A stretch of DNA of 60,901 nt from a virus (taxonomy: Duplodnaviria; Caudoviricetes), in IMG/VR virus record IMGVR_UViG_3300017717_000004, positions 1-60,901 of that record. The stretch is one strand, 5' to 3'. The notes beneath the pieces were generated by a model. That model did not search any database. It saw only the letters and a list, made by a program, of their open reading frames with translations, and was not told the origin of the DNA. A program made the position numbers and the translations under genes. Positions 1 through 60,901 of this stretch are shown one piece after another. Numbering within the stretch: position 1 is the stretch's first letter; each line of letters starts with the position of its first letter.

Positions 1-123
1 AAAAAAAGTTTAACTGGAGGTTTTGCAGAAAGAAGGTCTAAATAGCTTATATACAACAACAACTACACATGTTGATAAAAAAGACCTAGAGAAACAAAAC
101 AAATCTAAGTCTTTTAAATATGG
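1..123. repeat. Terminal direct repeat, left copy (circular assembly overlap)
   Basis: Bases 1-123 are identical to 60779-60901, and the repeat falls inside the terS/terL junction. Confidence 0.97.
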
Positions 124-4870: not shown

Positions 4871-4878
4871 TAATTTTG
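4871..4878 (+). promoter_or_regulatory. Bacteroidota -7 promoter element TAATTTTG
   Basis: Matches TAnnTTTG, 34 nt before the ATG at 4905. Confidence 0.6.
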
Positions 4879-4904
4879 CATTATAAATTTAAATTTAATT
4901 AATT

Positions 4905-16167: not shown

Positions 16168-16175
16168 TATATTTG
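16168..16175 (+). promoter_or_regulatory. -7 promoter element TATATTTG
   Basis: 32 nt before the ATG at 16200. Confidence 0.6.
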
Positions 16176-16199
16176 TATAACTATATATAGAAGAAAAAA

Positions 16200-16925
16200 A
16201 TGGCATTTTTAACAACAATGGGATTGGTAACTGGAGGTTTAGGCTCCGTTAATCAATTTATACAAGGAGGTAAGATGAAAAGGCAAGCCTCAGATATGCT
16301 TGCTGGTATAAGGGATGTTGAGTTAACTAATTTAGCAGAAAACCTAAAACCTTCTTTAGCAGCCGAAAGAACAGCAATACAGGGTATAAATCAAAGCATG
16401 TCTAATGCTGTAGATGTTGCTGGAACTATGGATGCTGCTCAAGCTATGGCTATGTTGGGTTCAGCACAAGGTCAGGCTTTTGACCAACAAACAAAAGTTT
16501 TTGATTCAATTCTTCAGAAAGAGTCTGATTTTGACGTAATGCGAATGGAACAAGAAGTAAAAAACAGAGATATACTGGAGGCGAGAAACATGGCGAAACG
16601 TCAAATGGCTATGGGACAAATGCAGGCTGGGGCTGAAATGCAAAGCGCAGCTGTAAAGGATTTTGCAACAACAGCTGTTAGTGCTGGTGTGGCTCAAGAA
16701 GCCGCACAGGCTGAGGCAGGCTTTACAGACCCTAAAGCCCTTAGATTAAGTAAAAAAGCATCTAAATTTGGCGTAGGTAAGGATAAGCTTACTGAGGTCT
16801 ACAATGCAAGTGGTACAGCAGGTCTTAAACAACTAGTAAAAGACAACAGACCTGATTTTAAAGATGGTAAATTTGCTCAGTTCTTTTCAGGTATTGGTAG
16901 TAAAATAGGAAGCTTGTTTAATTAA
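16200..16925 (+). CDS. Probable internal virion/ejection (pilot) protein
   Basis: Gly/Ala/Gln/Met-rich helical protein with a hydrophobic N-terminus, first of three genes of increasing size after the tail genes. Confidence 0.55.
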   Translation: MAFLTTMGLVTGGLGSVNQFIQGGKMKRQASDMLAGIRDVELTNLAENLKPSLAAERTAIQGINQSMSNAVDVAGTMDAAQAMAMLGSAQGQAFDQQTKVFDSILQKESDFDVMRMEQEVKNRDILEARNMAKRQMAMGQMQAGAEMQSAAVKDFATTAVSAGVAQEAAQAEAGFTDPKALRLSKKASKFGVGKDKLTEVYNASGTAGLKQLVKDNRPDFKDGKFAQFFSGIGSKIGSLFN

Positions 16926-18897: not shown

Positions 18898-21800
18898 ATG
18901 ATTGTGAACGAACAAACAACAACACCAGATATCAATACAGAATCTTCTGATGTTACAACAAATACAGCTGTGGTCGAAAATGATTCTCAGAATCAAACTA
19001 ACCCAACAGACCCGCCTATTGTTGTTGATAAAGTGGTTAATTATTTTAAGTCTAAACTTGATAAGGCAGGTAAAAAATATGATGAAAAACTTCTTTACCA
19101 ATACGCAAAAAGAAGCGACTTAAAAACCTTTATAAGAAAGTGGCATGTTTACAATGGATTTGCAAACCAACTGCCATCTCCATCAGAGGTGGATAGTGTC
19201 TACAACACTTGGATAGACCAAAACGCCATTGAAAAAAAAAATCAAAACCAGACTGCACAACAGGTTCTACAGAGCCAACCAAATGTTCAGTCTACAGATT
19301 CGGACTCACCTTCCACATCTACAGATGGAAGCTCTTCATCGGCGCCAAATACAATAAATCTCAGTGAAGAAGATTTAAATAACGCTAGTAACACCAATAC
19401 AGACGAAATAAATCTATATGATTTTGACTCTTGGAAAAAAGAAATAGAGATAAAAGGTATTGGGGGTTATTTAAGTGAAACAAGATATCTTTCCACGATA
19501 GTAAATCAAATTCCTAAAGAGGTTTTTGAAATGAATGAAAGAGATGCGGAAAGAGAATTAAAAAAACTTCTTACGCCATATCAATACGAGGTTTCTCAAG
19601 CTGTTGGCACATCTAATCAGTTAAAAATAAAAACTCCTGACGGAAGAGAGCAGATTATTGAACTATACCCCAACCTTAAAAAACAAAGATTAAATTATAT
19701 TAATGATGGTGGAGTAGAGGATTTGGTAGATAACAGGTTCAAGCAATTTAAAAACTTTTTACTTGGATATGACGATGATGGAAATGTTGTAGGTAATCCA
19801 AACCTTGTTCAAAACATGGCTGATAGGTTTTCTAACTCTAACAATATAATTATAGATATTTTTCAGGAGACTGAAAGATTTGTAACGCCTGAATTAGTTG
19901 ATTTAGAAAATCTAGCAGGGTCTCTTGGTGTTAGTGTTGACACATTTATGAAAGACGGCCTTATAGACTCAAGAAGTGTAGAGCTTGGCATCATATCTGC
20001 TAAAGCAAGCTTACAACAAGTTTATGATGATGCAATAGCGCAGGAACAAAATATATTCAATATAGCGTCTCAAAATGTAAGGTCAAAATTTAAAAACGTA
20101 TATCGTGCTTCTGGAGAAGCCGTAACTACCGAAATCAAAAAAGAAACAGCTTCTTTATTTGAGTCATACGACCCAGATAACAATATTTTTGCAGTAAAAC
20201 AAGCATATAAATATTTAGATGATATGCTTGTGGCGATAAAAGAAAAAAAAGACATAGCTTCTAAATTTATGGGTTCTGCTTTGGCTTTGTCAGGCACTTA
20301 TAAGGGTTTTGATTTAAATGACAGCGTAGGCATGATGTATGCCGTTAGAGCTGGTTTAGATTTGGGAGATATGCCATCAGATGGTATATTGATAAATGGA
20401 CTTCCTTCTTCTGCAAATAGTTTTCAAAATATAGTTACAGACCCACAAGGACTTCATGATATTATGAAGGGTAAAATAAAAATTGAAGTAGACCCAAATA
20501 GTGATGCTTATGGCGTTTTAGCTCCTTATATTTCAGGAGCTTTAAAACTACAGGATAGAAACGAGGCCTACGACTCTACAGGGGGGCTTAAAGGTACAGC
20601 AGGCCAAGCCTTAGCAAATGCTAATATAGCATATGAGTGGGTAGAAGACTTAGTTCAAGGTGTAGGTATTGGTGTTTTAGATATTGGGGCAAACACTGGT
20701 GTTCTGTTTTCAGATGCACTACAAATGATTGGGTTTGATAAAACAACAGCAGATTCAGTGGTTTTTGGAATGTATGGCCTTCCAACGACCCCAGGACTGA
20801 TATCTCCTCAAGAAGTTTTAATGCTTAAAGAATCGGCGTTGCCTTTATACGATAAGCAAATAAAAGATGCGGATAGTTTTGGTGAAATGTTGGCTTTAGT
20901 GAATCAACCATTTTCTCAATCCATACCCTACTTTGCTGCTTTTGCAGTGAATCCAGCACTTGGGCTTACTGTAACAGGAACAAGTTCTTATGGAGCATCG
21001 AAAACAGAGTTTGATAGATTAAAAATGGCGGCGCAAGATGCATTAGATAGGGGAGCAGAGCTAACAGAAAGCCAAAAGAAAATACTATCGGTTGGAGAAT
21101 GGGAAGCCAGAGGCATAGCTTTTTCAAAAGCAGCACAAGAGACAATAATGACAAGGCTTTTTACATATAGATATTTTAAAAGTATGTCTGGAGCTAAAAA
21201 TTTTAGTGGTGCCAAAAACCTTGAAAACGCAAGAAAATTAGCTGAAAGTTTTGAAAAGGTTGCTGTAAAATCAAGAATGGATGGTTTCAAGAAAATGTTT
21301 GGTGTTGATGGGAAAGCTTTACGAAATGAAATTATAGAAGAAGAAATAATAGCACTAAATAACTACACCATAAATGTAATGTGGGGTCTAGAAGAGTATG
21401 ACCAGAAAAAACTTAACGACCTTATGGTTAATACAGGTTTGATATCTGTTTTTTCTTCTACTGCTATGCAAAAGTTTGCGACTTTTGGCATGAATAAAAA
21501 AATTAGAGGAGTTGTTGATAGTACTATAAAAGGGAACATAAAACTAGACTCTGAAAGACAAGTAGTTGAAAACTACCTTAAAGCTGATGTTGATGTTGCT
21601 GTAATAGAACAAGATGCTGAAAAAAATGGAACACCATTAGAGGGAAATGACTCTTATAATTCAGCTCTTCGGATGAGAAGCAAATATCAGGAAGAGTTGA
21701 TGGATATAGAAAATGCAAAGCAAGAGCTCGTAGACAACATGAGTGAATCTGATAAAGCGGCTTATTTGGAGCTTATTATTAGGCTAGAAGAGTCTCATAA

Positions 21801-24800
21801 AATATTAAACTCTGACAAAACCAATACTGAAAAACAGGTTGCACTCGATAATATACCTAAATTACAAGAGTCATTAAGAAGTATTCTTGCGAGAAACCCT
21901 TCTGAATTAGGTTTTCATTTATTGAACAGTAAAACACAGCAAGAGTATTTTGACAAGGCTATGAATATGATTGTGAACGAGGAAAAAGATAAAGCTGTAC
22001 AAGAGGGTAAGGGGGATGATTTTTCTATTGACCTCAGCTCAACAGACCCTATGGTTATTCAAAGAGCTGCTGAGATGTATAAAAATGAATTAGAGACAGG
22101 TCTTAGAAACAACAGAGAATCCTTTTTACCAGCATCTTCATATAATGTTTTAGACCCAACCAAGTACATGGTTGATGTGACTAGGGAGGAAATGGATAAC
22201 TTCAACATACAAGCAAGTATAGAGTCTTTTAGGTTGAAGCAATATAACGCAAAAACTCTTGACGAAAAAGGTGGGAAAAAGCCAGACAACCAAAGAGAAA
22301 ATTTAGAACAGCCTAAAGTTGAGCTAACAACTGAGGGTATTGAAAGACCTGTTACAAAAGAAGATGTTTTATTGCAGCAAAAAATAGACGAGCAACAAGA
22401 GAAAAAAGACAACCTAAAAGAAGACTCTGGTAAAAAACAAACTCTAGGCGAATATAAAACAGAATCAATAGACGACATTGTAAATATTATTGAATCGTTT
22501 GCTATAAATGAAGACTTCATGGCTTCTTTGCCTGAATACCAGCAAAAACATATTGTTAAGTTTTTTAGTGATATTGAACTAGGAAAAGACCCACAATTAG
22601 GTCATGTTAGGTCTATACTAGACTCTCATAGAATTGCTACAGACATATCTGGTAGGTCAGCAGATAAAATAGAAATATTTCAAGCACTAGGGTTTAAAAA
22701 AGACGAAATTGCAAACCTTACAGTAGAGCAAATGTACGCAAAGCTTAATTCTTTGTCTCAAAAATTTGTTACAGCAGGTTTTAATGTGGGAAGCTTTAAG
22801 ACTGGATTTGGTACAGGAGATATAATTCTAAAAACATTGTTTAGAGATAAATATGTTGGAAGTAAATTTTATGACTTATTTAGAAGGGTTAGTAGAAAAG
22901 TTGACGAAAGCAGACAAACAACAAACTTACAATACAAAGAGGCTTTAAGTTTATATGAAAAATTAGTTATAAAACAAAACTCAGAAACAGGAGGCAATAA
23001 GTCTGTAAACCCAAATGATTTAGAAAACTCCTATACTCTTTACATGTTGGCAGGCGGATTTAGGAAGTCTGGCAAAACAAATGAAAAAGGAGTTGATTTA
23101 GAGTTTAGTAGATTTAAAAGCCTTTTATCACAAGAGTTGAGGTTAAGAAAACAAGAGTTTGATTCATCTTCTGGCACAAATAAAGCAAAGTATAAAAAAG
23201 AATATGAAATGTTTAAAAGGGTTTATGATGCTCTTGGATATGAAACAGCAAATAGCTATAGTGAATTAAATGCATCTGAAGCCGATATAAATTTTATTAA
23301 GCGGGTTTCTCTTCTCCAGCCTGGAGATTTAGCCTTGCGAAGAATAACTGATTTCGGAGGCAAACTAGATAACCAAGACAGAGGAACTAGTGTTCCTTTT
23401 GTAGATGGAAGTTATATTCCGATTCCTTTGTTTAAAGGATTTGATTCATCTGGCTCAAGAACGTCGTCTAAAGACGGTGGAGAAGGTTCAAACATAAATG
23501 ACGCTTCAAACCTAATGTCCATAGAGTTTGTAGAAAACCTTTCAGAAGACCTTAGACTAAACCCAGGTATGTTTGCAAAAAATGTTTTTGACAAAATGAA
23601 TGGGGCTTTAACTGACATAAATGCAAGACAGGATGTTGTTACTTTAAAATACCTAATGGACAATCCTAGATTTCAAGAATTGTTTAGCAGTAAAAAAGAA
23701 TATGATGTTTTAGCAGCTTATTTTAAAGGAAGAGAAAAGATTTTTAATAATATTGTGGCACAAGGCAACAATAATGTAGTTGAAGTATCATCTGGCGCTA
23801 AGTATATAATTCCTAAAGTTATAAGAGCGGCTTACAGCACATGGGCGGCAAGAGCACTCGCAAGGTTAGACCAAAGACCATCTCAGTTTTATAGTGCTAT
23901 TAGTGGTACTGCTCCCTACTTAAAATCTAAGTTTGCTAAAAACCATTTAAATAGTGGAACATTTAAGTTTACAGGAGGTCTTTCTACTTTAACAAACGGG
24001 ACAAAGGCTAGAACTATTGTTGGTAAGTATATGCAAAATAGCATGTTTGGAAGGGGTGATTTATCAAATATATACTCAAAATCAAGAACAGGACTTCGTA
24101 ATGCTATTCAAGCAGAATTCCTACTTGACGAAAATCAACAAATACCAACAAGCTATTACTTAAACTTTTTAAACATAAAAGACAAAGATGGCGCCATAAT
24201 AAAAGAAGTAGGAGCTGTATCTACTTTGAACAACTTTATAGATTATATTTCTAAAGGAAGTGAGCTTTCTCTAGATATATTTTTAGCAAGTGCAGATAGA
24301 GCTGCAGCTAATGTAGCTTTTGAGTCTCATTACATAGACGCAAGAGTGAAGCAAGGGGAAAATCTTGAGAATGTTGACATGACGGCGTGGTGGAAAAAAG
24401 AAAATGAAAACCCAAATACTGATGCAATAAACGAAGCTGATGCTTTAGTTGCTCAAACCATGAGACAAACAGGTAAGTTTTCTGAAGCAGATATATATAA
24501 TAACGGAGAGACAGGTCAAAACATATTAAGAGCATTTATACCTTTTCAAAGGTTTATTACAAACGCAAGAGCAAATTTTGCTAATCAAGTAGCTATATTA
24601 AATGACCCAACCATTCCACCAAGTCAAAAATCAGAAGCTAAATCAGCTATACAAGGAATAATTCAGGAAATTATGACTTTTAAAAGTGTAAAGCTTGGTA
24701 GCGCTTTAGTTACCATGAAGGGCTTTGCTGCTGGTATATTAGGATTTGGTTTGTCTGATGATGATATTAGGAGACGTGGGGGTGTTACTCAACTTATTGG

Positions 24801-25647
24801 GGCGGATATGCTTCCTGTTGAGGATAGGCCTGGCTTATTAGAATCAGGTCCAAATGAATACTCTGATTTATTTGGAGATTTACCTCCAGGACAAAAAGAA
24901 ACACTTGAGGCTGACTTTATATCCAAGATGGCTAGTAGAGAGTATGCTTCTATTGAAGGGTTTTCTTATTACATAGGAGAATATGCTAGAGAGTATGAAA
25001 ACAAATTTAAGGTTGGTAATACTTATAGTGTTTTGTCTGCAGCTATTGGTGATGTATTGTTGACAACAAAACCATTCGCACTTCCAAGTGCTGGAGAAAG
25101 TGCTCTTTTAGTTAAGCTAAATGAAATGATGGGTAATGAATTTTTCAATGACTTTGTAAGTAAAGATATTGAAAACGCAAAAACTAAAGGCGGCAGAAGA
25201 GAGTTGATACTTGAAAACTTTTCAGGAGTGTATGGTATAGGTGAAGAACAATATAATAAGGTTGTAGAGGCTTTAGATTTGTATTTTGAAAATGAAGTAA
25301 ACATCTATACAGGGGAATACGGAAATAGAACACAATATGTAGGAGGTGGAAATAATGAAGCTAGAACAAAACAATTAAGAAGCAGTATAGGGTTTTTAGT
25401 TAGCCTTAGAACTCTTGGAGAAAACTTCTTACCAGGCGTTCCTAAAGGCGATTTAATTAAAATAGGTAACTACCTACAGAGAGCTATAGAGAATGAGTTT
25501 AAGACAACTAAAAAAGACCCACTGATGCCTACAATAGATAGAGGTTCGGATTCTGGATTAATAAATGATGCCTATCAGCTACTTAAAGGTCCAAGACAAA
25601 ATAACGAGGAAGAGATAAAAAAATACTTAAAGCAATTTCAAAGGTAA
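18898..25647 (+). CDS. Very large probable internal virion/ejection protein
   Basis: 2249 aa, last gene of the structural operon; no catalytic motif recognised. Confidence 0.55.
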   Translation: MIVNEQTTTPDINTESSDVTTNTAVVENDSQNQTNPTDPPIVVDKVVNYFKSKLDKAGKKYDEKLLYQYAKRSDLKTFIRKWHVYNGFANQLPSPSEVDSVYNTWIDQNAIEKKNQNQTAQQVLQSQPNVQSTDSDSPSTSTDGSSSSAPNTINLSEEDLNNASNTNTDEINLYDFDSWKKEIEIKGIGGYLSETRYLSTIVNQIPKEVFEMNERDAERELKKLLTPYQYEVSQAVGTSNQLKIKTPDGREQIIELYPNLKKQRLNYINDGGVEDLVDNRFKQFKNFLLGYDDDGNVVGNPNLVQNMADRFSNSNNIIIDIFQETERFVTPELVDLENLAGSLGVSVDTFMKDGLIDSRSVELGIISAKASLQQVYDDAIAQEQNIFNIASQNVRSKFKNVYRASGEAVTTEIKKETASLFESYDPDNNIFAVKQAYKYLDDMLVAIKEKKDIASKFMGSALALSGTYKGFDLNDSVGMMYAVRAGLDLGDMPSDGILINGLPSSANSFQNIVTDPQGLHDIMKGKIKIEVDPNSDAYGVLAPYISGALKLQDRNEAYDSTGGLKGTAGQALANANIAYEWVEDLVQGVGIGVLDIGANTGVLFSDALQMIGFDKTTADSVVFGMYGLPTTPGLISPQEVLMLKESALPLYDKQIKDADSFGEMLALVNQPFSQSIPYFAAFAVNPALGLTVTGTSSYGASKTEFDRLKMAAQDALDRGAELTESQKKILSVGEWEARGIAFSKAAQETIMTRLFTYRYFKSMSGAKNFSGAKNLENARKLAESFEKVAVKSRMDGFKKMFGVDGKALRNEIIEEEIIALNNYTINVMWGLEEYDQKKLNDLMVNTGLISVFSSTAMQKFATFGMNKKIRGVVDSTIKGNIKLDSERQVVENYLKADVDVAVIEQDAEKNGTPLEGNDSYNSALRMRSKYQEELMDIENAKQELVDNMSESDKAAYLELIIRLEESHKILNSDKTNTEKQVALDNIPKLQESLRSILARNPSELGFHLLNSKTQQEYFDKAMNMIVNEEKDKAVQEGKGDDFSIDLSSTDPMVIQRAAEMYKNELETGLRNNRESFLPASSYNVLDPTKYMVDVTREEMDNFNIQASIESFRLKQYNAKTLDEKGGKKPDNQRENLEQPKVELTTEGIERPVTKEDVLLQQKIDEQQEKKDNLKEDSGKKQTLGEYKTESIDDIVNIIESFAINEDFMASLPEYQQKHIVKFFSDIELGKDPQLGHVRSILDSHRIATDISGRSADKIEIFQALGFKKDEIANLTVEQMYAKLNSLSQKFVTAGFNVGSFKTGFGTGDIILKTLFRDKYVGSKFYDLFRRVSRKVDESRQTTNLQYKEALSLYEKLVIKQNSETGGNKSVNPNDLENSYTLYMLAGGFRKSGKTNEKGVDLEFSRFKSLLSQELRLRKQEFDSSSGTNKAKYKKEYEMFKRVYDALGYETANSYSELNASEADINFIKRVSLLQPGDLALRRITDFGGKLDNQDRGTSVPFVDGSYIPIPLFKGFDSSGSRTSSKDGGEGSNINDASNLMSIEFVENLSEDLRLNPGMFAKNVFDKMNGALTDINARQDVVTLKYLMDNPRFQELFSSKKEYDVLAAYFKGREKIFNNIVAQGNNNVVEVSSGAKYIIPKVIRAAYSTWAARALARLDQRPSQFYSAISGTAPYLKSKFAKNHLNSGTFKFTGGLSTLTNGTKARTIVGKYMQNSMFGRGDLSNIYSKSRTGLRNAIQAEFLLDENQQIPTSYYLNFLNIKDKDGAIIKEVGAVSTLNNFIDYISKGSELSLDIFLASADRAAANVAFESHYIDARVKQGENLENVDMTAWWKKENENPNTDAINEADALVAQTMRQTGKFSEADIYNNGETGQNILRAFIPFQRFITNARANFANQVAILNDPTIPPSQKSEAKSAIQGIIQEIMTFKSVKLGSALVTMKGFAAGILGFGLSDDDIRRRGGVTQLIGADMLPVEDRPGLLESGPNEYSDLFGDLPPGQKETLEADFISKMASREYASIEGFSYYIGEYAREYENKFKVGNTYSVLSAAIGDVLLTTKPFALPSAGESALLVKLNEMMGNEFFNDFVSKDIENAKTKGGRRELILENFSGVYGIGEEQYNKVVEALDLYFENEVNIYTGEYGNRTQYVGGGNNEARTKQLRSSIGFLVSLRTLGENFLPGVPKGDLIKIGNYLQRAIENEFKTTKKDPLMPTIDRGSDSGLINDAYQLLKGPRQNNEEEIKKYLKQFQR

Positions 25648-40115: not shown

Positions 40116-40138
40116 TGTGTGAGTTTATTAATTGTTGT

Positions 40139-40345
40139 CTACTCTTTAAGGTTTTCGACTGCCCCTATTTTGTTTTGTAGATTTAGTAAGGCTAACTTGT
40201 AACCATAGTTCTTAGCTAATTGCATTAGCAAAAAGTCATTACTACCGTTGTTTGCTTTTGCGAATTCATTTAGATATTCTTCTGTAGGTGTAGCTACTAT
40301 ACTCTTGTTCAGTTTTTCTAATTCTTTTCTGATATATTTTTCCAT
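40139..40345 (-). CDS. Hypothetical protein
   Basis: ORF in the early region. Confidence 0.6.
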   Translation of the reverse strand: MEKYIRKELEKLNKSIVATPTEEYLNEFAKANNGSNDFLLMQLAKNYGYKLALLNLQNKIGAVENLKE

Positions 40346-40349
40346 AATA

Positions 40350-40655
40350 TTATATTTTCATTGTGTGATAATATTGTATAAAGCTTGTTGTATATAGCGC
40401 ACCAATAAATAACCAAACAGGCGAAGTGAATAGTATTTGTGTTGTTGAAAAACTACTTATGATATGTGATAGTAGCGCCATACTACTAAACACAAACAAC
40501 CAATACATAAATGATATGAATACTTTCATATATGTGTTGAGGTTTAGATTTTCTGTTGTCGTACTATCAGCTATAGTGATTGTGATTGCACCGTTCCTAC
40601 TTTTTTTCTGAACGGTTGTGATGCCTGTAGGCAAAGTTTTAGTGATTGTTTTCAT
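40350..40655 (-). CDS. Hypothetical membrane protein with two TM helices
   Basis: Two hydrophobic segments in the C-terminal half. Confidence 0.6.
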   Translation of the reverse strand: MKTITKTLPTGITTVQKKSRNGAITITIADSTTTENLNLNTYMKVFISFMYWLFVFSSMALLSHIISSFSTTQILFTSPVWLFIGALYTTSFIQYYHTMKI

Positions 40656-40827
40656 GTGAATTGAATTTTAGATTATTGATTTTATTTTCAAGTCTTGTGA
40701 CTTGAGAGTCTGCAAAGTCAATACGACCTTGTAGAACCAACAGTTGATTTATCAACACATCTCTGTGTATAATCCAGTCAGCCTGTTCGTTTTCTTGTAG
40801 TATAATTGCTTGTGTATATGTAGCCAT
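40639..40827 (-). CDS. Hypothetical coiled-coil protein (start MATYTQ)
   Basis: ATG in an A-rich context just downstream of the tRNA; the longer track ORF runs through the tRNA. Confidence 0.6.
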   Translation of the reverse strand: MATYTQAIILQENEQADWIIHRDVLINQLLVLQGRIDFADSQVTRLENKINNLKFNSHENNH

Positions 40828-40841
40828 AATTATAAATTTTG

Positions 40842-40915
40842 TAGCGCCTGTAGGATTCGAACCTACATTTGCATCGTGAAAGGATGATGTCCTAAACCAA
40901 TTAGACGAAGGCGCC
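40842..40915 (-). tRNA. tRNA-Glu (anticodon TTC), CCA not encoded
   Basis: GGCGCCT/AGGCGCT acceptor stem, D loop with GG, anticodon loop CTTTCAC, T arm GTAGG-TTCGAAT-CCTAC. Confidence 0.92.
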
Positions 40916-41040
40916 AGATAGTGAGAAGTAAGGAAACTCACTTATATTAACTAAACATACACATTGACTTACTTTTTTATATGATTTGCGTCGCATCATT
41001 GGGTGTGTATTTCCCCTTTTGCCAGCAAGCGAAGAACAAA

Positions 41041-42069
41041 CCAAATGCCCGTATTCACGAGCATCGGTTGCCTGTATACTATTCAGGTCTTTCTTCAGCC
41101 AAACGGTCAACCACTTCTTCTACTGTGGATTCACGTTCTTCTGTTGCAACTAAGAAGCCTAACTGACTGAACACGCTATCAGGTGTGTTCAAGACTGGCT
41201 CTTCTGCTACTGCATCCATTTTCTTTTCAAACAACCACTCTGGAATTGTTACTTGTACCAATTTCTTTTTGGCATCAACAATGCTGAGTTGTGATTGTGA
41301 TTTAGGCATATACACTCTATCAAATAATTTAGTGTTACCTTGTTTGCAGTTCGATAAAACAATTGCTTTACCTGAAGCGTGAATTTCCACTAATGTGGCT
41401 TTGAATGTTACTGTTGTTGAATTTGAATTTTTCATTTTATGTATATTTAAAAATTAATACCCAACGAATACAAATGCTTACTTGATATAACCGAGGCCAG
41501 ACTTCAATTGTTTTCAAATATTTTCATGAAAGGCTTTAGCCGCTTCGAAAAAATTTTAAAAGAATTTAAGCTGGGTTGAAAACTTGCCAAGCTTCGATAA
41601 AATTTTTAATCAAAAATTTTTCAAGGTTGAGCAACCGAAGGGGATACCAAGTAAGCATTTGTAAATTTGTATGGGATTTTTAATACATAAAATAAAATTC
41701 CAACGGCAGTAATATTCAATTCCATAATAGAAATTCAGGCATTCAAGTGAAGTGATTGTTCGGACTGCATACAAATCTATCTATCTATCTATTTATTTAT
41801 TTGATTGTGTGTATGGCTTAACCAATCACAGCTCTATCTGATGAACCAAAAAGGAATACCAACAAGTGACAATAACAGAGTTGTCGATTAATAAAATGGG
41901 TGTAGTAGTATATGCAAGTCCTGACAACAGCTGATGACTTTCATACAGTTATGGTTATTAGTGACATAAGGTTGTGAAACCAACAGTTGAAGTGGTGACA
42001 TTATGTTTAGGTGAAAGACAAGGATAGGATAGGTTATCGAATGATTGTGAATACGAGCATTACCATTGG
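41041..42069 (+). repeat. Giant imperfect inverted repeat (arms about 41041-41488 and 41644-42069)
   Basis: Collinear helices, e.g. 41469-41484/41648-41663 (16 bp perfect), 41401-41419/41701-41719, 41286-41297/41823-41834, 41207-41222/41893-41908, 41044-41060/42045-42061. Confidence 0.9.
41079..41435 (-). CDS. First gene of the early arm: small beta-barrel-like protein with acidic tail
   Basis: GKAIVL..YMPKSQ..VTIPEWL motif and E-rich C-terminus. Confidence 0.75.
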   Translation of the reverse strand: MKNSNSTTVTFKATLVEIHASGKAIVLSNCKQGNTKLFDRVYMPKSQSQLSIVDAKKKLVQVTIPEWLFEKKMDAVAEEPVLNTPDSVFSQLGFLVATEERESTVEEVVDRLAEERPE

Positions 42070-42103
42070 GATGAAGGGGGTGGGTATAGGAAGGGGTGCC
42101 AAA

Positions 42104-42143
42104 GGATACCGTAGGTATCCGCCAAAGCGAGAGAGGCGAAGCC
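42104..42143 (+). other. GNA-triloop minihairpins
   Basis: GGATACC-GTA-GGTATCC at 42104-42120 and GGC-GAA-GCC at 42135-42143. Confidence 0.7.
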
Positions 42144-42358
42144 GAGCGAGCGAGATAGATAGTATTTGTAAATTGACATAGGTATAGAAAAAAGCTAAAA
42201 AAAATAGAGTAATGAACGGATAGAAACAACCCCCATATAATATATAAATCAATTTACATAACGATAGTGTAGGTAAAAAATATAGATTACCTAAAACCTC
42301 AGCATATGCGTGGCGTATTTTTGAAAACAGTTAAAGTAATATAAATAGGTCATCATTA

Positions 42359-42759
42359 GTTTACATTATTGCGCCACATATTTACATCGGATAATTAAGT
42401 ATATTTGTAAAAAATAAAGTTATGCCAAACAAAAAGAAAAACGATTCAATACCTCAGCCAACATACAAGAATATAAAAATGTTTGCTAATATTAGAAACC
42501 AAAATATGGGGTCGAACCAACCAGTCACAAAAAACGACTCAATTGTATATAGACAAGGTTTTGATTTTGGGTTAAAGCATCAAGGCGGCATGAATCCTCC
42601 ACCAGCAAATGAAAACTTAATGTTCCGAGGGGGAAGATGGGAAGGTCAAAACACTGAAAATCCAATAAAGAACGCTACAAGACCAAACATCATTACAAGA
42701 GGTATGAATGCCATAAAAGACTTCTTTAACGATTAGTTGTTTACATTTTTGCGCCACAT
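42359..42759 (+). repeat. 21-bp direct repeat GTTTACATT(A/T)TTGCGCCACAT at 42359-42379 and 42739-42759
   Basis: One mismatch; each copy precedes a TATATTTG motif (42400 and 42772). Confidence 0.85.
42422..42736 (+). CDS. Hypothetical protein
   Basis: 104-aa ORF downstream of the promoter motif at 42400-42407. Confidence 0.6.
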   Translation: MPNKKKNDSIPQPTYKNIKMFANIRNQNMGSNQPVTKNDSIVYRQGFDFGLKHQGGMNPPPANENLMFRGGRWEGQNTENPIKNATRPNIITRGMNAIKDFFND

Positions 42760-42782
42760 TGTTTTTTTTTGTATATTTGTAT

Positions 42783-42878
42783 ATGAAAAAGATAAAATGG
42801 TCTGTCGTATTGGTTTGGGTGAGTATATTTACAATCTCTTATTTAATATGGTCACCTATTTTAAAATTGATTTTCTAA
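42783..42878 (+). CDS. Possible 31-aa membrane peptide (MKKIKWSVVLVWVSIF...)
   Basis: Read by hand; follows the promoter motif at 42772. Confidence 0.35.
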   Translation: MKKIKWSVVLVWVSIFTISYLIWSPILKLIF

Positions 42879-43011
42879 TGTGGAAAACAAACTATAGTAT
42901 AAATGTCGAAATTGACAACAAAGTTGGCGCAGGAAATTATTGGACTCAAACATCAACCTGGGACAAGGAATTTAATACAAAAATTACAGCAAAAGATTGA
43001 TGAACTTGAGC

Positions 43012-43116
43012 GACAAGCAAGTGACAAGCCAAAGACACGCAAAACAAGCTGATTTACAGGTGATATACGTCAGTTTTTTAGCTTATTAAAAAAAAAGAGG
43101 CTAAAATCGACATGCC
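43012..43116 (+). repeat. Second iteron-like array upstream of groEL
   Basis: GACAAGCAAGT-GACAAGCCAAA-GACACGCAAAA (11-bp period) plus AAATCGACATGC at 43104; units match the reverse complement of 32291-32336. Confidence 0.7.
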
Positions 43117-43168
43117 TATATAAAAAGAAGAAAAGAAAAGAATAAAAATTTAATATAATAATACATAA

Positions 43169-44764
43169 ATGATTGAAAAAAACATAGTTTTTGGTTCTGA
43201 TGGCAGGAAAAAACTAAAAAAAGGCATTGATACCCTTGCAGAGGCTGTTTCCTCTACTTTAGGTGCTTCAGGAAAGACAGTAATTATTGAAGACCAGTTT
43301 GGAAACCCTCATATTACAAAAGATGGGGTAACAGTAGCTAATAGTATATTGCTTTCAGACCCAGTAGAGAACCTCGGCTGTAGCATTTTAAAGCAAGCTT
43401 CACAAAAAACAGCGTCGGAAGCAGGAGATGGTACTACAACTTCCTGTGTTTTAGCAAAATCCATGATAGATAAGTGTTTTGACCAAATAAATAGCGTTGA
43501 AAATGTAACTCAAGCTAAAGAAGGTATAGAACATGCCGCTAGATTGGTGGTAAAAACACTCGAAAAAATGAAAACTGAAGTGACAGACGAAAAATTACTT
43601 CAAGTTTCTACTATTTCGGCTAACGGAGATGAGTATATTGGTAAGATGATAGCAGATGCCTATATAAAAGTAGGTAAAGATGGTGTTGTAACAATGGACG
43701 AGTCCACCACAGGCGAGGATTATACCGAAATAACTAATGGAACCAAAATACAAAGAGGGTATGGTACTCCATTTAGCATAAACAACCTTAGAAATAAGTC
43801 AGTAGAGTTTCAAAACCCCTTAATTGTCATTAGTGACATGAAAATTGACATGCACGAACGACTTCATTTTGCGTTTGAGGCCTCAATAAAGCAAAAAAAG
43901 CCACTTTTAATCATTTCAGACCTAGACGACAGGGTAAAATTGTTTATAGCACAAAATATAAACAAGAAAAACCTTACGGCTAACTTTTTAACACCTGAAG
44001 GTATAGGTATAAAAAGATTTGAACTACTTGAAGACCTTTGTATGATGACTGGAGCTAGAATGATTTCAGAAATGTCAGGAGATTCTTCTCAAAATATTGA
44101 TGCATCTTATCTTGGCACCTGTAGACAGATGATTTCAAACTCAACAGAAACCGTTTTGGTGTTTGATGAGGCGGAAAACAAGAAAAAAGATGAGGTTATT
44201 GAGTGGTTAAATAAAGAAATACGATTAAGTGCCAATAAAACCGATAAGTGGCACTTGCAAGACAGATTATCTAAATTAGCTGGTGGTGTAGCAACCATAA
44301 AACTTGCTGGTAACTCAGAAGTTGAGCTGAAAGAGAAGAAAGATAGGGTAGATGATTCCATCCATGCAACAAAAGCAGCCTTAGAAGAAGGTATTGTTGC
44401 TGGTGGAGGGGTAGCCTTATTAGACGTACATAGAAAAATTTCCAAAAAATCTCCGAGAAGCAACTCTGATTCTTTTGTTTGGGGTTATAATATATTAATT
44501 GAGTCTCTGCCGAGTGCCTGGGAAAAAATCATAGAAAACTCAGGGCAATCAACAGAACACAAGTATATTGTAAGTAAAATGGAAAACAGAACCATCAAAC
44601 ATGGATTAGATGTTAAAACTGGTAAGTTTGGAAATATGATAAGAATGGGGATTATTGACCCCTTTAAAGTAACTAAAAATGCTGTTTTAAACTCAGCATC
44701 AGTTGCATCAATAATACTGACGACATCATGTGTCGTCTCAAACAAGAGAATAAATAAAAATTAA
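43169..44764 (+). CDS. groL: Chaperonin GroEL (Cpn60)
   Basis: ITKDGVTVA, AGDGTTT, KLAGGVA, GIVAGGG, GIIDP; no GGM tail. Confidence 0.97.
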   Translation: MIEKNIVFGSDGRKKLKKGIDTLAEAVSSTLGASGKTVIIEDQFGNPHITKDGVTVANSILLSDPVENLGCSILKQASQKTASEAGDGTTTSCVLAKSMIDKCFDQINSVENVTQAKEGIEHAARLVVKTLEKMKTEVTDEKLLQVSTISANGDEYIGKMIADAYIKVGKDGVVTMDESTTGEDYTEITNGTKIQRGYGTPFSINNLRNKSVEFQNPLIVISDMKIDMHERLHFAFEASIKQKKPLLIISDLDDRVKLFIAQNINKKNLTANFLTPEGIGIKRFELLEDLCMMTGARMISEMSGDSSQNIDASYLGTCRQMISNSTETVLVFDEAENKKKDEVIEWLNKEIRLSANKTDKWHLQDRLSKLAGGVATIKLAGNSEVELKEKKDRVDDSIHATKAALEEGIVAGGGVALLDVHRKISKKSPRSNSDSFVWGYNILIESLPSAWEKIIENSGQSTEHKYIVSKMENRTIKHGLDVKTGKFGNMIRMGIIDPFKVTKNAVLNSASVASIILTTSCVVSNKRINKN

Positions 44765-44768
44765 AATT

Positions 44769-44924
44769 ATGGTTATATCGAATGAAATATTTGAATCTTA
44801 TAGACTTCAAAAAAGGAAAGAAACAAAAGCAGCAAACCTTTTGATTACAAATGGTTATACTGTATTAGACGAAAAAGGAAAAGTCCTAACTAAACAAAAA
44901 TTAGGCGTTGAAGGCAGTTGGTAG
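44769..44924 (+). CDS. Hypothetical 51-aa protein between groEL and groES
   Basis: Read by hand (MVISNEIFESYR...). Confidence 0.5.
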   Translation: MVISNEIFESYRLQKRKETKAANLLITNGYTVLDEKGKVLTKQKLGVEGSW

Positions 44925-45186
44925 TTTTATTATTGTAAAAGATGATGAGGTGGTTCAAAAAAATGAACTGGGACTCATTATAACTGAAAAATCAGATAAT
45001 AACATAAGATATGTTATAGGTCAGGTAGTAACTGTTGGCGAAGATGTCAAAGAGGTTAAGCCTGGTCAATTTGTTTACTTTGACAAGATATCAGGCTCTG
45101 AGCTGAGGATTAAAGGAACTAAGCTTAAGGCTATTAGAGAAAAAGATGTCGTTGTAACAATGGATGATGTTAACACCGCTATTTGA
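44908..45186 (+). CDS. groS: Co-chaperonin GroES (Cpn10)
   Basis: Mobile loop ELGLII, GQVVTVG..VKPGQFVYF, IREKDVV; TTG start; next to groEL. Confidence 0.85.
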   Translation: MKAVGSFIIVKDDEVVQKNELGLIITEKSDNNIRYVIGQVVTVGEDVKEVKPGQFVYFDKISGSELRIKGTKLKAIREKDVVVTMDDVNTAI

Positions 45187-46385: not shown

Positions 46386-46418
46386 CAAAAATACGAAAAA
46401 CATTTTTTGGTATCTTTG
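46386..46418. promoter_or_regulatory. Divergent -7 promoter pair
   Basis: TATTTTTG on minus (46386-46393) and TATCTTTG on plus (46411-46418). Confidence 0.6.
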
Positions 46419-46442
46419 CCTTATAATTTAAAAAACATCATT

Positions 46443-47231
46443 ATGCCAACTAAGTTGCCAAAAAGACTAAGACCATACACTGCAGGTGTAAACAAGCCCT
46501 TCGGAAAAATGAAAGGAAGGGGAATTCAATATAGATATTTATCAAGTCAATTTACTCCATATGAAGGAAGCAAACTTGTTAACAGACCAAAAGGGGGAGG
46601 AGTAGTCTCTTCTAATGCTTTTGCTAGTGGATATCAATCTTATAACAGCGTAAGTGGAAACACTCCAGGCTCTCAATACGATATTAAAAACCCAATGAAA
46701 GGTCCTGAGGTTAGAATGAGTCAAAGAAGTGGTGGGAGCTTTAGCGGAGTTGGTGGTAACAGACCTTATCCAGGAAACAGAGCCTCTCTCAAGGCTGCGG
46801 ATAGAGGAGCTAAAGCGACAGCAAAAGCCTATGACGTAATGGAAAAGGGATATGCTAAAGCAAAATTCCTTGACACTAAGGGAGATATAAAGGCAAGAAA
46901 CATTCTTTCTAAAATCGACGAGAACACGAGCGAAAAGAAGAAAGCTCGATTAATGAAAAGAGCTCAGAAAGTAGACAAGAGGCTTGATAAGAGAGCACAA
47001 AGAGTCTTAGATAGAAAAATGAATAAGGCTGGAAAAGACAAATACAGAAAAAAAATTGGAGCTGCTGGAACTGATATTCAGGGGATGGCTAATTTCATGT
47101 ATGGTAAATTTTTAGAGCGTTCGGAAAAGCTTACTAGCAAAATGAACGCACCAAAAACATATATGCCTAGAACAAGCAAAGCAACAACTACAAACAGTAG
47201 ACGAAGAAAAACTACGTTTGAAAGAGATTAA
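46443..47231 (+). CDS. Basic K/R/G-rich protein (start MPTKLP)
   Basis: ATG 32 nt after the promoter motif. Confidence 0.6.
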   Translation: MPTKLPKRLRPYTAGVNKPFGKMKGRGIQYRYLSSQFTPYEGSKLVNRPKGGGVVSSNAFASGYQSYNSVSGNTPGSQYDIKNPMKGPEVRMSQRSGGSFSGVGGNRPYPGNRASLKAADRGAKATAKAYDVMEKGYAKAKFLDTKGDIKARNILSKIDENTSEKKKARLMKRAQKVDKRLDKRAQRVLDRKMNKAGKDKYRKKIGAAGTDIQGMANFMYGKFLERSEKLTSKMNAPKTYMPRTSKATTTNSRRRKTTFERD

Positions 47232-59467: not shown

Positions 59468-59475
59468 TATATTTG
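59468..59475 (+). promoter_or_regulatory. -7 promoter element TATATTTG
   Basis: 32 nt before the ATG at 59500. Confidence 0.6.
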
Positions 59476-59499
59476 TATATAAATTAAATCTTAAATAAA

Positions 59500-59763
59500 A
59501 TGGCAAAAAAAACAAAATCAGTGCCTGTACAGGCCTCAGTCGTTATTGACGAAAAAATCCTCAACCAAATAAAAGAGATTAGAAGAACCCAATCTAACTT
59601 ACAGTTGGAAATTGGTTCTCTATCTGTTAAAAAACATTTAATACTACACCAACTCCATGAAATAGGGGATAATCTGCAAAACATAATGAAGGCTCTTGAG
59701 GAGCAGCATGGAAAAGGCACTTTGAACTTAGATACAGGAGAGATAAAATTAGATTCCGAGTAA
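59500..59763 (+). CDS. Small coiled-coil protein
   Basis: LEEQHGKGTLNLDTGEI C-terminus. Confidence 0.65.
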   Translation: MAKKTKSVPVQASVVIDEKILNQIKEIRRTQSNLQLEIGSLSVKKHLILHQLHEIGDNLQNIMKALEEQHGKGTLNLDTGEIKLDSE

Positions 59764-60548: not shown

Positions 60549-60823
60549 TAGATTCTAAGGAAATAAAAGAAAGAATTATAAAAGCTGGTCATGAGGCTGT
60601 AAGACAATTAATTAAAGTTGCTGAAGAGGAGATTATAAAGCCAGACCCAGAAGATGAGCTGGCTGCAGATAGATTAAAAAACGCTGCTGCAACAAAAAAA
60701 CTTGCAATCTTTGACGCTTTTGAAATATTAAACAGGATTGAAAATGAAAAAAATATGCTTGAGAATCCTGAAGAAGAGAAAAAAAGTTTAACTGGAGGTT
60801 TTGCAGAAAGAAGGTCTAAATAG
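60545..60823 (+). CDS. Probable terminase small subunit
   Basis: Helical 92-aa protein whose 3' end overlaps the terL start across the circular join; ATGA coupling upstream. Confidence 0.6.
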   Translation: MIDSKEIKERIIKAGHEAVRQLIKVAEEEIIKPDPEDELAADRLKNAAATKKLAIFDAFEILNRIENEKNMLENPEEEKKSLTGGFAERRSK

Positions 60824-60901
60824 CTTATATACAACAACAACTACACATGTTGATAAAAAAGACCTAGAGAAACAAAACAAATCTAAGTCTTTTAAATATG
60901 G
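60779..60901. repeat. Terminal direct repeat, right copy
   Basis: Identical to 1-123. Confidence 0.97.

What the first reader, a model, noticed from the sequence alone, without database searches (positions are those of the whole stretch)
41435..41693. Promoter motif that lines up with the first early gene only in the fold-back form (Frpo-like)
Seen: a perfect Bacteroidota -7 element TAAATTTG lies at 41662-41669 in the right arm. In the hairpin it sits opposite about 41464-41470, about 35 nt upstream of the ATG at 41435. That matches the spacing at other promoters here (4871 to 4905, 16168 to 16200, 46411 to 46443, 59468 to 59500). Its AA is bulged next to a perfect 16-bp helix. In duplex DNA the gene's own minus strand reads TATTCGTT at that position, which is not consensus. 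Established: sigma factors read this element on the non-template strand, and plasmid Frpo/ssi promoters form only in ssDNA hairpins. Inference: when folded, the right arm supplies the non-template strand and RNAP copies the left arm into true mRNA. In duplex form the same motif would drive only a non-coding sense-like RNA rightward.
Basis: inference. Interest (0 to 1): 0.85.

Follow-up and report, generated by a model that had tools for sequence, protein, structure and literature searches.

The report
Promoter in a gene's mirror copy
The promoter motif is real, but it belongs to an untranslatable mirror-image copy of a small phage gene and most likely fires away from that gene in ordinary double-stranded DNA; the unusual part is that gene and mirror copy have been kept together and kept alike in every relative found.

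Summary
TAAATTTG is at 41662-41669. In the fold it pairs with 41470-41465, 35 nt before the ATG, with the AA bulged beside a perfect 16-bp helix.

The cause is bigger than a hairpin. 41044-42061 is a 1,018-bp quasi-palindrome: an early unit (118-aa ORF plus terminator) and an inverted, stop-riddled copy, around a 155-bp apex. All 11 relatives' loci fetched show it.

The outward-pointing perfect TAnnTTTG is kept in 10 of 10 sequences from three deep lineages. None has a perfect motif before the real gene. The arms co-evolve: the AU test rejects one clade of copy arms, and exact co-changes far exceed permutations.

My reading (0.5): an ordinary duplex sigma-A promoter firing rightward. It lines up with the gene by common descent. 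The gene probably uses its own TAATTTTT, 21 nt before the ATG.

The Frpo-like reading is geometrically sound and its 34-35 nt register is conserved. It lacks an ssDNA stage and a -33 box, and nothing suggests the motif is silent in duplex DNA (about 0.12).

Metatranscriptome contigs cover only the gene body, so starts remain unknown. The scan's notes list a similar ORF-free divergence region in another genome.

The parts
41662..41669 (+). Perfect -7 box TAAATTTG at the inner end of the right (copy) arm, pointing rightward away from the 118-aa gene. The predicted duplex transcription start is about 41674.
   Evidence: A perfect TAnnTTTG sits at the homologous place in 10 of 10 sequences. The -7 box spans -12 to -5 according to passages read in PMC9723704.
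41644..42061 (+). Right arm: an inverted, decayed, untranslatable copy of the whole early unit (promoter region, ORF and terminator hairpin).
   Evidence: Local alignment scores 183 against 23.4 +/- 2.7 in 200 shuffles. blastn self-match 41044-42061, inverted, 66% identity, E = 3e-32. Stops in all three frames in 8 of 8 copies. ATG is ATA in the copy.
41489..41643 (.). Apex between the arms, predicted to fold into two local hairpins (a three-way junction). It is the best-conserved non-coding stretch of the locus.
   Evidence: Identity between the window and L010 is 90-96% here, against 70-92% in the ORF and 54-78% in the copy arm. One loop-closing pair changes T-A to G-C.
41044..41488 (-). Left arm: the real early unit, made of the upstream region, the 118-aa ORF 41435-41079 and the terminator-like hairpin 41065-41044.
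   Evidence: The protein family has 6 close and 7 distant members. RNA-library contigs cover 40927-41388.
41463..41470 (-). Mirror place of the motif on the gene strand. It reads TATTCGTT, which is not a consensus -7 box.
   Evidence: Relatives read TGTATTTG (L009) and TGTGTTTG (L010) nearby, each one mismatch from consensus.
41449..41456 (-). TAATTTTT, 21 nt before the ATG: candidate duplex -7 box of the gene itself (last base T instead of G). The predicted start is about 41444.
   Evidence: The equivalent motifs are TAATTTTA at 22 nt (L012 group) and TAAATTTA at 21 nt (L016). The perfect promoter 42400-42407 sits 22 nt before the ATG at 42422, the same geometry.
41772..41779 (-). Perfect TAGATTTG on the gene strand inside the copy arm, 344 nt before the ATG. 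It is a possible second promoter that would give a 332-nt folded leader.
   Evidence: A sense-strand motif at -340 to -375 is present in 5 of 10 sequences. It is absent from L012-L015, and L009 lacks that DNA.
42041..42061 (+). Copy of the terminator hairpin at the outer end of the right arm, without a following T run.
   Evidence: (I2). No + strand terminator-like site was found in 40500-43300.

Best explanation
The motif is the -7 box of an ordinary sigma-A type promoter that works on double-stranded DNA and fires rightward, away from the 118-aa gene. It sits in the right arm of a 1,018-bp quasi-palindrome (41044-42061). The left arm is a small, expressed early transcription unit: upstream region, 118-aa ORF and terminator hairpin. 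The right arm is an inverted copy of that same unit. It can no longer be translated, but it has kept its promoter. Because the arms are homologous, anything in the right arm falls opposite the equivalent place before the real gene when the strand is folded. The lining-up is by descent, not by design. From about 41674 the promoter would make an untranslated, sense-like RNA that runs through the decayed copy towards the rightward genes at 42422 onward. The 118-aa gene is most likely transcribed from duplex DNA by its own near-consensus box, TAATTTTT, 21 nt before the ATG. The arms stay about 66-70% alike because short patches are repeatedly copied from arm to arm, by template switching or gene conversion in a transient fold-back during replication. 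Shown: the anatomy, its conservation, the non-coding state of the copy, conservation of the outward motif, arm co-evolution, and RNA-library cover of the gene. Inferred: which promoters fire, the extent of the rightward RNA, and how the arms exchange sequence. Still unexplained: why a compact phage keeps about 420 nt of dead copy in every lineage.
For: Host and phage type.
- The window is a complete 60.9-kb virus record.
- Its terminase matches Flavobacterium, Cellulophaga, Tenacibaculum and Maribacter phages.
- Terminase, portal and virion proteins are recognised.
- No T7-type RNA polymerase, reverse transcriptase, resolvase or integrase was found.

The quasi-palindrome.
- Searches show it. 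The + strand of 41055-42050 folds as DNA to -198.9 kcal/mol, z = -17.7.
- It is the only internal repeat in the genome apart from a 123-nt assembly overlap.
- It is present in 11 of 11 fetched loci (10 distinct contigs) as far as their DNA reaches. Arm identity is 0.69-0.77, and the outer ends lie +360 to +391 after the ATG in the loci whose DNA reaches them.
- The copy is non-coding.

The promoters.
- The outward perfect TAnnTTTG is present in 10 of 10 sequences, with different middle bases in the three lineages (AA, GG, TA). It has a canonical -33 TTG at N19 (L012 group) and TTTG at N21 (L016).
- No perfect motif lies within 60 nt before the real ATG in 0 of 10 sequences.
- TAATTTTT, TAATTTTA or TAAATTTA lies 21-22 nt before the ATG in all three lineages.

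Arm co-evolution.
- Copy arms fall into three clades, each with the gene arms of its own lineage (support 99-100).
- The AU test rejects a single clade of copy arms, p = 2.4e-5.
- Exact co-changes occur at 9 of 35 gene-variable columns (permuted mean 0.10, 0 of 5000 as high) and at 18 of 70 (permuted mean 2.36, 0 of 5000; shifted controls 3-6).
- They come in patches with shared indels.
- Abstracts in the listing (PMC7202029, PMC8604942) describe template switching that homogenises imperfect inverted repeats.
Against: - No transcript start was seen. The four RNA libraries are kept as contigs, and these cover only 40927-41388, so neither the rightward RNA nor the gene's start is documented.
- In the window the outward promoter has no -33 TTG at 19-21 nt.
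- The gene's candidate box ends in T or A instead of the consensus G, and its nearest TTTG is only 14 nt upstream, not the usual distance.
- The asymmetry (a perfect box in the dead copy, none before the live gene) persists in three lineages even though sequence passes between the arms. A plain relic model does not predict that.
- The repeat runs exactly from the promoter region to the terminator and has nearly constant length in all lineages. This hints at a function of the fold-back as a whole that this explanation leaves open.
Confidence: 0.5

Rival explanations
1. Fold-back promoter. When the + strand is single-stranded, in replication intermediates, at resected ends or in an extruded cruciform, it folds into a pseudo-duplex. 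The copy arm then supplies the non-template strand, including the -7 box, and the polymerase copies the gene arm into true mRNA. The copy arm would act as a surrogate non-template strand from promoter to terminator.
For: - The strand geometry is correct.
- The first T of the motif pairs with -35 in 6 loci and -34 in 1, of 7 tested. The box lies in a bulge or internal loop beside a helix in all of them.
- The motif is kept in the copy arm and absent before the gene in all lineages.
- The repeat spans exactly promoter to terminator.
- The arms co-evolve.
- The motif-bearing strand folds better in 6 of 6 loci: -381 to -444 against -295 to -331 kcal/mol with RNA parameters, and -198.9 against -159.1 with DNA parameters.
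Against: - The register and the extent follow equally from common descent of the arms.
- A tailed phage with a terminase and a portal delivers dsDNA, so this cannot serve a first early gene at entry.
- A 155-nt apex makes cruciform extrusion unlikely (my knowledge, not tested).
- There is no -33 box in the window's fold.
- The strand bias in folding is explained by a genome-wide excess of T over A on the + strand at four-fold sites in both gene blocks and by general T enrichment of the copy.
- The 16-bp helix is broken by two uncompensated mismatches in L010.
- No virion RNA polymerase was found.
Confidence: 0.12
2. The fold-back acts as RNA. A long mRNA isoform from the sense-strand box at 41779-41772 carries a 332-nt leader that folds over the start codon, controlling translation or offering a processing site. 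Alternatively, a + strand RNA spans both arms.
For: - The - strand also folds far better than shuffles (z = -7.7), and the start codon lies in the outer stem.
- A perfect sense-strand TAnnTTTG lies 340-375 nt upstream in 5 of 10 sequences.
- Structured 5' regions are common in flavobacteria (passage read in PMC9723704).
Against: - The sense-strand box is missing in L012-L015.
- A leader would explain only the inner 130 nt or so of the copy arm, not its full length.
- The mRNA-sense strand is the worse folder in 6 of 6 loci.
- No Rfam family matches the region.
Confidence: 0.08
3. The quasi-palindrome is a DNA-level element of replication or recombination. The AT-rich, highly conserved apex between two divergent promoters would be an unwinding or priming site, or the region would lie at or near a physical genome end and fold back there.
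For: - It sits at the strand switch, where cumulative GC skew is lowest.
- The apex is the most conserved non-coding piece.
- Conserved non-coding blocks follow the copy arm.
- Patchy arm-to-arm transfer implies that the fold-back forms at some frequency.
Against: - No initiator sites were identified in the apex.
- The scan's notes place iterons inside the initiator gene near 32.3 kb (not checked by me).
- The record assembles as a circle with a 123-nt overlap.
- Physical ends could not be examined.
- Contig ends of two relatives near the outer end of the copy arm do not coincide exactly.
Confidence: 0.15
4. A dead pseudogene with a chance motif. The copy and its TAAATTTG have no function at all.
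For: The bare motif occurs at chance frequency in the genome, and the copy is non-coding.
Against: - The motif is kept at the same place in 10 of 10 sequences, while the rest of the copy arms is only about 45-53% alike between lineages.
- The copy keeps its length and its boundaries in all lineages of a compact genome.
Confidence: 0.05

Closest known systems
Frpo / ssi single-stranded DNA promoters of F and ColIb-P9 plasmids
   Same: A long stem-loop of one DNA strand in which a promoter box on one arm would direct transcription of the other arm. The geometry here allows this.
   Different: Frpo is a non-coding sequence on DNA that enters the cell single-stranded. Its fold rebuilds both -35 and -10 boxes, and conversion to duplex switches it off (passages of PMC9849209). 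Here the DNA is packaged double-stranded. One arm is the gene itself and the other is its decayed copy. The window has no -33 box. The same box is a complete outward promoter in duplex DNA.
Hairpin early promoters of phage N4, read by the injected virion RNA polymerase (recalled, not read here)
   Same: A dsDNA podophage in which early transcription depends on extruded DNA hairpins.
   Different: As I recall, N4 hairpins are very small (5-7 bp stems, 3-nt loops) and need a virion polymerase. No such polymerase was found here, and the motif is the host sigma-A box.
Bacteroidota sigma-A promoters (-33 TTTG / -7 TAnnTTTG)
   Same: A perfect -7 box. Two of the three lineages also have a -33 TTG at 19-21 nt. 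The box lies at -12 to -5, and the median 5' UTR in Flavobacterium psychrophilum is 24 nt (passages of PMC9723704).
   Different: It heads an untranslatable mirror copy of the neighbouring gene rather than a gene.
Quasi-palindromes homogenised by template switching; large palindromes kept alike by arm-to-arm gene conversion
   Same: Imperfect inverted repeats whose arms exchange short multi-nucleotide patches (abstracts of PMC7202029 and PMC8604942 in the listing; human Y-chromosome palindromes recalled).
   Different: Here one arm is a whole expressed phage gene and the other a non-coding copy of about 420 nt. Identity is held near 66-70% rather than driven to perfection, and the pair persists in lineages whose proteins are only 53-61% identical.

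Membership tests
Frpo-like single-stranded DNA promoter | The DNA is delivered or present as a single strand when the promoter acts | tested here: not met
   Terminase large subunit, portal and virion proteins mark a dsDNA-packaging tailed phage. Single-stranded DNA during replication cannot be excluded with these tools.
Frpo-like single-stranded DNA promoter | The stem-loop rebuilds both promoter boxes | tested here: not met
   The -7 box is present but interrupted by a 2-nt bulge and a G-T pair. The window has no TTG or TTTG 19-21 nt upstream.
Frpo-like single-stranded DNA promoter | The promoter is silent once the DNA is double-stranded | tested here: inconclusive
   By sequence, the box is a complete outward promoter in duplex DNA, and it has a canonical -33 in the L012 group and L016. 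Activity itself cannot be tested here.
Frpo-like single-stranded DNA promoter | The folded strand is the template of the genes that are driven | tested here: met
   The + strand carries the motif and is the template of the - strand gene. The register is 34-35 nt in 7 of 7 loci.
Frpo-like single-stranded DNA promoter | Sequence similarity to Frpo | not tested
   No Frpo sequence was at hand. Given the different host phylum and promoter type, none is expected.
N4-type hairpin promoter | A virion RNA polymerase gene in the genome | tested here: not met
   The 2249-aa virion protein has no Pfam, PHROG or PDB match and no lead from the protein atlas. PF00940 was not found, but that search rang in none of its control genomes, so it is weak.
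Bacteroidota sigma-A promoter | -7 box TAnnTTTG | tested here: met
   It is kept in 10 of 10 sequences.
Bacteroidota sigma-A promoter | -33 TTG or TTTG about 19-21 nt upstream | tested here: inconclusive
   Absent in the window group. Present at N19 in the L012 group and at N21 in L016 (context strings).
Bacteroidota sigma-A promoter | A transcript start about 12 nt from the first base of the box | not testable with these tools
   Only contigs of RNA libraries were available.
Quasi-palindrome with arm homogenisation | Arms homologous in inverted orientation | tested here: met
Quasi-palindrome with arm homogenisation | Arms are closer to each other within a genome than to the same arm in other lineages | tested here: met
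   Identity is 64-68% within a lineage and 44-56% between lineages. The tree and the AU test agree.
Quasi-palindrome with arm homogenisation | Shared multi-nucleotide co-changes in both arms | tested here: met
Diversity-generating retroelement (template and variable repeat) | A reverse transcriptase gene | tested here: not met
   PF00078 was not found in the complete genome, and the control genomes rang.
Invertible promoter segment | A site-specific recombinase; both orientations of the segment seen | tested here: not met
   No resolvase or integrase family match. The apex is colinear in the window, L009 and L010.

The most novel reading that the evidence does not exclude
The 1-kb fold-back is a self-contained transcription unit carried by one DNA strand. 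Whenever the + strand is single-stranded, it folds so that the dead copy serves as the non-template strand, with promoter box, body and terminator, for the live gene. Expression of this gene would then be coupled to the single-stranded state of the phage DNA. That would be a Frpo-like principle in a tailed dsDNA phage of Bacteroidota. It would explain three things: why the copy spans exactly promoter to terminator, why it tracks the gene, and why only the copy keeps the perfect box.
Probability: 0.1. Interest if true: 0.9.

Novelty: new variant of a known kind. Interest (0 to 1): 0.5.

Why it matters
If the ordinary reading is right, the lesson is practical. A promoter that lines up only in the fold is what any inverted duplication of a transcription unit will produce, and it should not be read as a single-strand promoter without transcript starts.

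The locus still deserves a bench test. A compact phage keeps an expressed early gene and an untranslatable mirror copy with its own conserved promoter. The two arms exchange sequence, in lineages whose proteins have drifted to 53-61% identity. That points to a function that depends on likeness between gene and copy, and no described phage element I know of works that way.

It also gives a clean test case for single-strand or structure-dependent promoters outside conjugative plasmids. Three predicted starts about 14 nt or more apart (41444, 41458 and 41767 on the - strand), plus 41674 on the + strand, tell the models apart.

Tried and rejected
Relatives in the phage collection.
- DNA similarity for 40800-42500 and tblastn with the 118-aa protein found nothing.
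- The closest cultured or deposited relatives (MW202828.1, elemo phages, Cellulophaga phages) lack the gene.
- MW202828.1 has no long inverted repeat at its divergence point.

Distant relatives of the protein.
- The representative search gave 12 proteins at E <= 0.001.
- I could not fetch DNA around the distant ones.
- Two sub-alignments and two single proteins found no locus in viral contigs.
- Three of them found nothing in the phage collection.
- So I could not test whether distant homologues also carry a mirror copy.

Function of the 118-aa protein.
- No Pfam or PHROG family matched.
- The AlphaFold model has five strands, a helix and a disordered acidic tail, with mean pLDDT 69.6.
- Foldseek found nothing in the PDB at E <= 0.001.
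- In BFVD it found one close relative and only unnamed proteins.

RNA evidence.
- Four RNA libraries from three studies, all kept as contigs, covered 40927-41388 and nothing else in 40500-43300.
- The lack of cover over the apex, the copy arm and the leader proves nothing. Contigs show neither strand nor starts.

G-T wobble asymmetry as a sign of selection for + strand folding.
- The asymmetry is real: 199 against 53.
- I rejected it as evidence. The copy is T-enriched from A, C and G alike, and four-fold sites show the same + strand excess of T in both gene blocks.

Other ideas set aside.
- A G-rich tract at 42068-42096 as an R-loop or primer element: not conserved, since L016 has a C-rich tract there.
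- Contig ends of L006 and L010 near the outer end of the copy arm as a physical genome end: they differ by about 26 nt.
- A sliding RNA-parameter fold scan of the whole window was not corrected for G+C and was not used.

Papers.
- I saw passages of PMC9849209 and PMC9723704, and only listings and abstract starts.
- I opened no supplements. SI Appendix D5 of PMC9723704, on sigma-A motif variants, may bear on whether a box ending in T or A is active.
- I did not search the literature for a mirror-copy arrangement as such. The statement that I know no described example is recall, not a search result.
Full report
WHAT THE WINDOW IS

The window is a complete 60,901-base virus record. Its 123-nt terminal repeat is an exact assembly overlap. 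Terminase, portal and virion proteins are recognised. The terminase is closest to an uncultured podovirus, MW202828.1 (63.5% identity), and to phages of Flavobacterium, Cellulophaga, Tenacibaculum and Maribacter (87 records). A Flavobacteriia host with TAnnTTTG promoters is therefore a fair assumption.

Genes run rightward up to 25.6 kb, leftward from 41,435 down to 25.6 kb, and rightward again from 42,422. The finding lies in the 986-nt ORF-free gap at the 41.4-42.4 kb strand switch. I found no T7-type RNA polymerase, reverse transcriptase, resolvase or integrase (the polymerase search had no ringing control). The 2249-aa virion protein matches nothing.

THE OBSERVATION

- TAAATTTG is at 41662-41669.
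- 41425-41705 folds far better than shuffles on both strands: + strand -60.3 kcal/mol, z = -9.4; - strand -53.2, z = -7.7.
- The helix 41469-41484 / 41648-41663 is perfect over 16 bp.
- The motif pairs with 41470-41465, and its two A's are bulged.
- The gene strand there reads TATTCGTT.
- The four promoters quoted for comparison have spacings of 34, 32, 32 and 32 nt.
- Perfect boxes also lie 21-25 and 30 nt before other genes.
- The bare motif is no commoner than chance: 110 against 94.9 +/- 8.9.

WHAT IS REALLY THERE

The hairpin is only the inner part of a much larger object. The reverse complement of 41044-41488 aligns with 41644-42061 (score 183 against 23.4 +/- 2.7 in shuffles). blastn sees 41044-42061 as one inverted self-match (66% identity, E = 3e-32). 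This is the only internal repeat of the genome apart from the assembly overlap.

The left arm holds the upstream region, the 118-aa ORF (41435-41079) and a terminator-like hairpin just after the stop codon (41065-41044). The right arm is an inverted copy of that whole unit.
- The start codon reads ATA in the copy.
- Stops fill all three frames.
- tblastn finds no protein likeness in the window's copy.
- The terminator copy has lost its T run.

Between the arms lies a 155-nt apex that folds into two local hairpins. As single-stranded DNA, the + strand of 41055-42050 folds to -198.9 kcal/mol (z = -17.7) and the - strand to -159.1 (z = -12.3).

RELATIVES

The 118-aa protein belongs to a small, real family. 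There are 6 close members and 12 proteins at E <= 0.001 among 1.84 billion representatives.

I fetched eleven loci that encode it, from 10 distinct contigs. All 11 show the inverted copy as far as their upstream DNA reaches. Arm-to-arm identity is 0.69-0.77. The outer ends lie 360-391 nt after the ATG in the loci whose DNA reaches them. Spacers measure 117-307 nt. The duplication is therefore old and has the same boundaries everywhere.

Nevertheless each copy arm is closest to the gene arm of its own lineage (64-68%), not to the copy arms of other lineages (44-56%). A careful tree puts the copy arms into three clades, each with its own gene arms (support 99-100). An AU test rejects a single clade of copy arms (p = 2.4e-5; I named the group after seeing a first tree, and left L007 out as partial).

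Among close relatives the two arms change together.
- Exact co-changes occur at 9 of 35 gene-variable columns in five loci (permuted mean 0.10, 0 of 5000 as high; shifted controls 0-2).
- They occur at 18 of 70 columns between the window and L010 (permuted mean 2.36, 0 of 5000; shifted controls 3-6).
- The co-changes come in short patches that share indels and several neighbouring bases.

This looks like patchy copying from arm to arm rather than single compensating mutations. Template switching that homogenises imperfect inverted repeats is a known process (abstracts of PMC7202029 and PMC8604942 in the listing).

THE MOTIF IN THE RELATIVES

A perfect TAnnTTTG lies at the inner end of the copy arm, pointing away from the gene, in 10 of 10 sequences. 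It reads TAAATTTG in the window group, TAGGTTTG in the L012 group and TATATTTG in L016. The rest of the copy arms is only about half identical between these lineages, so the box is under selection.

In the L012 group a TTG lies 19 nt upstream, and in L016 a TTTG lies 21 nt upstream. That is the canonical duplex architecture. The window group has no -33 element.

No perfect box lies within 60 nt before the real ATG in any of the 10. All three lineages do have TAATTTTT, TAATTTTA or TAAATTTA 21-22 nt before it. That is the spacing of the perfect, conserved promoter at 42400 before the ATG at 42422.

A sense-strand perfect box 340-375 nt upstream, inside the copy arm, is present in 5 of 10 sequences and absent from L012-L015.

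In Flavobacterium psychrophilum the sigma-A box lies at -12 to -5, the median 5' UTR is 24 nt, and 5.5% of mRNAs are leaderless (passages of PMC9723704). The predicted starts are therefore:
- 41674 on the + strand for the outward box;
- 41444 on the - strand for the box at 21 nt;
- 41458 on the - strand for the mirror place;
- 41767 on the - strand for the far box.

THE FOLD-BACK PROMOTER IDEA

Its geometry is sound. The + strand carries the motif and is also the gene's template. In 7 of 7 loci folded, the first T of the box pairs with position -35 (six loci) or -34 (one locus) before the real ATG. The box lies in a bulge or internal loop next to a helix. The motif-bearing strand is the better folder in 6 of 6 loci.

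Each of these facts also follows from simpler causes.
- The register is inherited with the duplication.
- The strand bias comes with a general T enrichment of the copy.
- The same excess of T over A on the + strand appears at four-fold sites in both gene blocks: coding-strand T 0.455 and A 0.393 in rightward genes, A 0.46 and T 0.374 in leftward genes.

Measured against what defines Frpo (passages of PMC9849209), this element falls short on three counts. The DNA does not enter as a single strand. The fold does not rebuild a -33 box. Nothing suggests that the box is silent in duplex DNA. In L010 the 16-bp helix carries two uncompensated mismatches.

I therefore rate this reading at about 0.12. 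It is not excluded, and it is the only reading so far that explains why the copy runs exactly from promoter to terminator and why only the copy keeps the perfect box.

EXPRESSION

Twenty of the 24 listed runs hold the stretch or a part of it. Fourteen DNA runs hold all of its sampled words.

In four RNA libraries from three studies, the contigs that match 40500-43300 at 99-100% all lie within 40927-41388. That is the gene body and its 3' region, up to just before the tRNA-Glu at 40841-40915. This fits an abundant, real mRNA. Contigs show neither strand nor ends, and the lack of cover elsewhere proves nothing.

WHAT I CONCLUDE

The motif is most likely an ordinary duplex promoter of the mirror copy, firing rightward into an untranslated RNA. 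No + strand terminator-like site was found up to 43300, so this RNA may also serve as a long leader of the rightward genes. The gene most likely has its own weaker promoter close to its start.

The remarkable part is the persistent, co-evolving mirror copy and the very conserved apex (90-96% between the window and L010, above the ORF itself). Their function is open. Besides the fold-back promoter I considered three other readings.
- An RNA leader (0.08).
- A replication or recombination element (0.15).
- A functionless relic (0.05, contradicted by conservation).

I excluded a diversity-generating retroelement and an invertible promoter, because the genome has neither a reverse transcriptase nor a recombinase and the apex is colinear in relatives.

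LIMITS
- Only three deep lineages are available.
- The host is not known.
- The temporal class of the gene ("early") is assumed from its position.
- All promoter assignments are by sequence.

Noticed in passing
window 40841-40915 (-) and 40927-41388: A tRNA-Glu (anticodon TTC) lies 128 nt after the terminator-like hairpin (164 nt after the stop codon) of the 118-aa gene. RNA-library contigs of three studies begin at 40927-40982, just upstream of the tRNA's 5' end. This suggests read-through and processing at the tRNA. The listed ORF 40639-40941 overlaps the tRNA and is probably not a gene.
   Followed up: partly
window 42023-42050, 42100-42160, 42190-42240: Non-coding blocks beyond the copy arm are conserved across all three lineages. 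The hairpin GGATACC / GGTATCC (about 42104-42120) is replaced in L016 by a different but again complementary pair of arms, followed by a shared GCCAAAGCGAGAGA stretch. No Rfam family matches.
   Followed up: partly
window 42370-42379 and 42750-42759 (+): Two perfect rightward promoters (TATATTTG at 42400 and 42772) share an upstream word, TGCGCCACAT, that is also kept in relatives. It may be a regulator site or an extended -33 region of an early promoter class.
   Followed up: partly
whole window: At four-fold degenerate sites the + strand has more T than A in both the rightward and the leftward gene blocks. This strand bias is independent of transcription direction and may reflect one-directional replication or single-strand exposure of the + strand.
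   Followed up: partly
window 41079-41435 (-): The 118-aa protein has no known family. Its model shows five strands, a helix and a disordered acidic tail. It has a conserved PEW motif, and only 12 related representatives were found among 1.84 billion proteins.
   Followed up: partly
window 18898-25647 (+): A 2249-aa protein at the end of the virion module has no Pfam, PHROG or PDB match. Its counterpart in MW202828.1 is 3859 aa.
   Followed up: partly
L005 (MW202828.1) 43745-45160: The closest deposited relative has five copies of a perfect 16-bp palindrome (GTGTCGTTAACGACAC) spread through its early region, in place of a long inverted repeat.
   Followed up: no
window 40136-40168 (-): A sub-threshold Rfam match to DUF805b RNA (32.5 bits against a gathering score of 35.6, E = 1.3e-6) lies between two small leftward genes.
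   Followed up: no
L006:1 and L010:1: Contigs of two independent assemblies end within about 26 nt of each other, just outside the outer end of the copy arm. This corresponds to roughly 42040-42095 in the window. It could be an assembly break or a hint of a DNA end.
   Followed up: partly
window 1-123 and 60779-60901: The 'direct terminal repeat' of the record is an exact 123-nt overlap, as a circular assembly gives. The true ends are unknown.
   Followed up: yes
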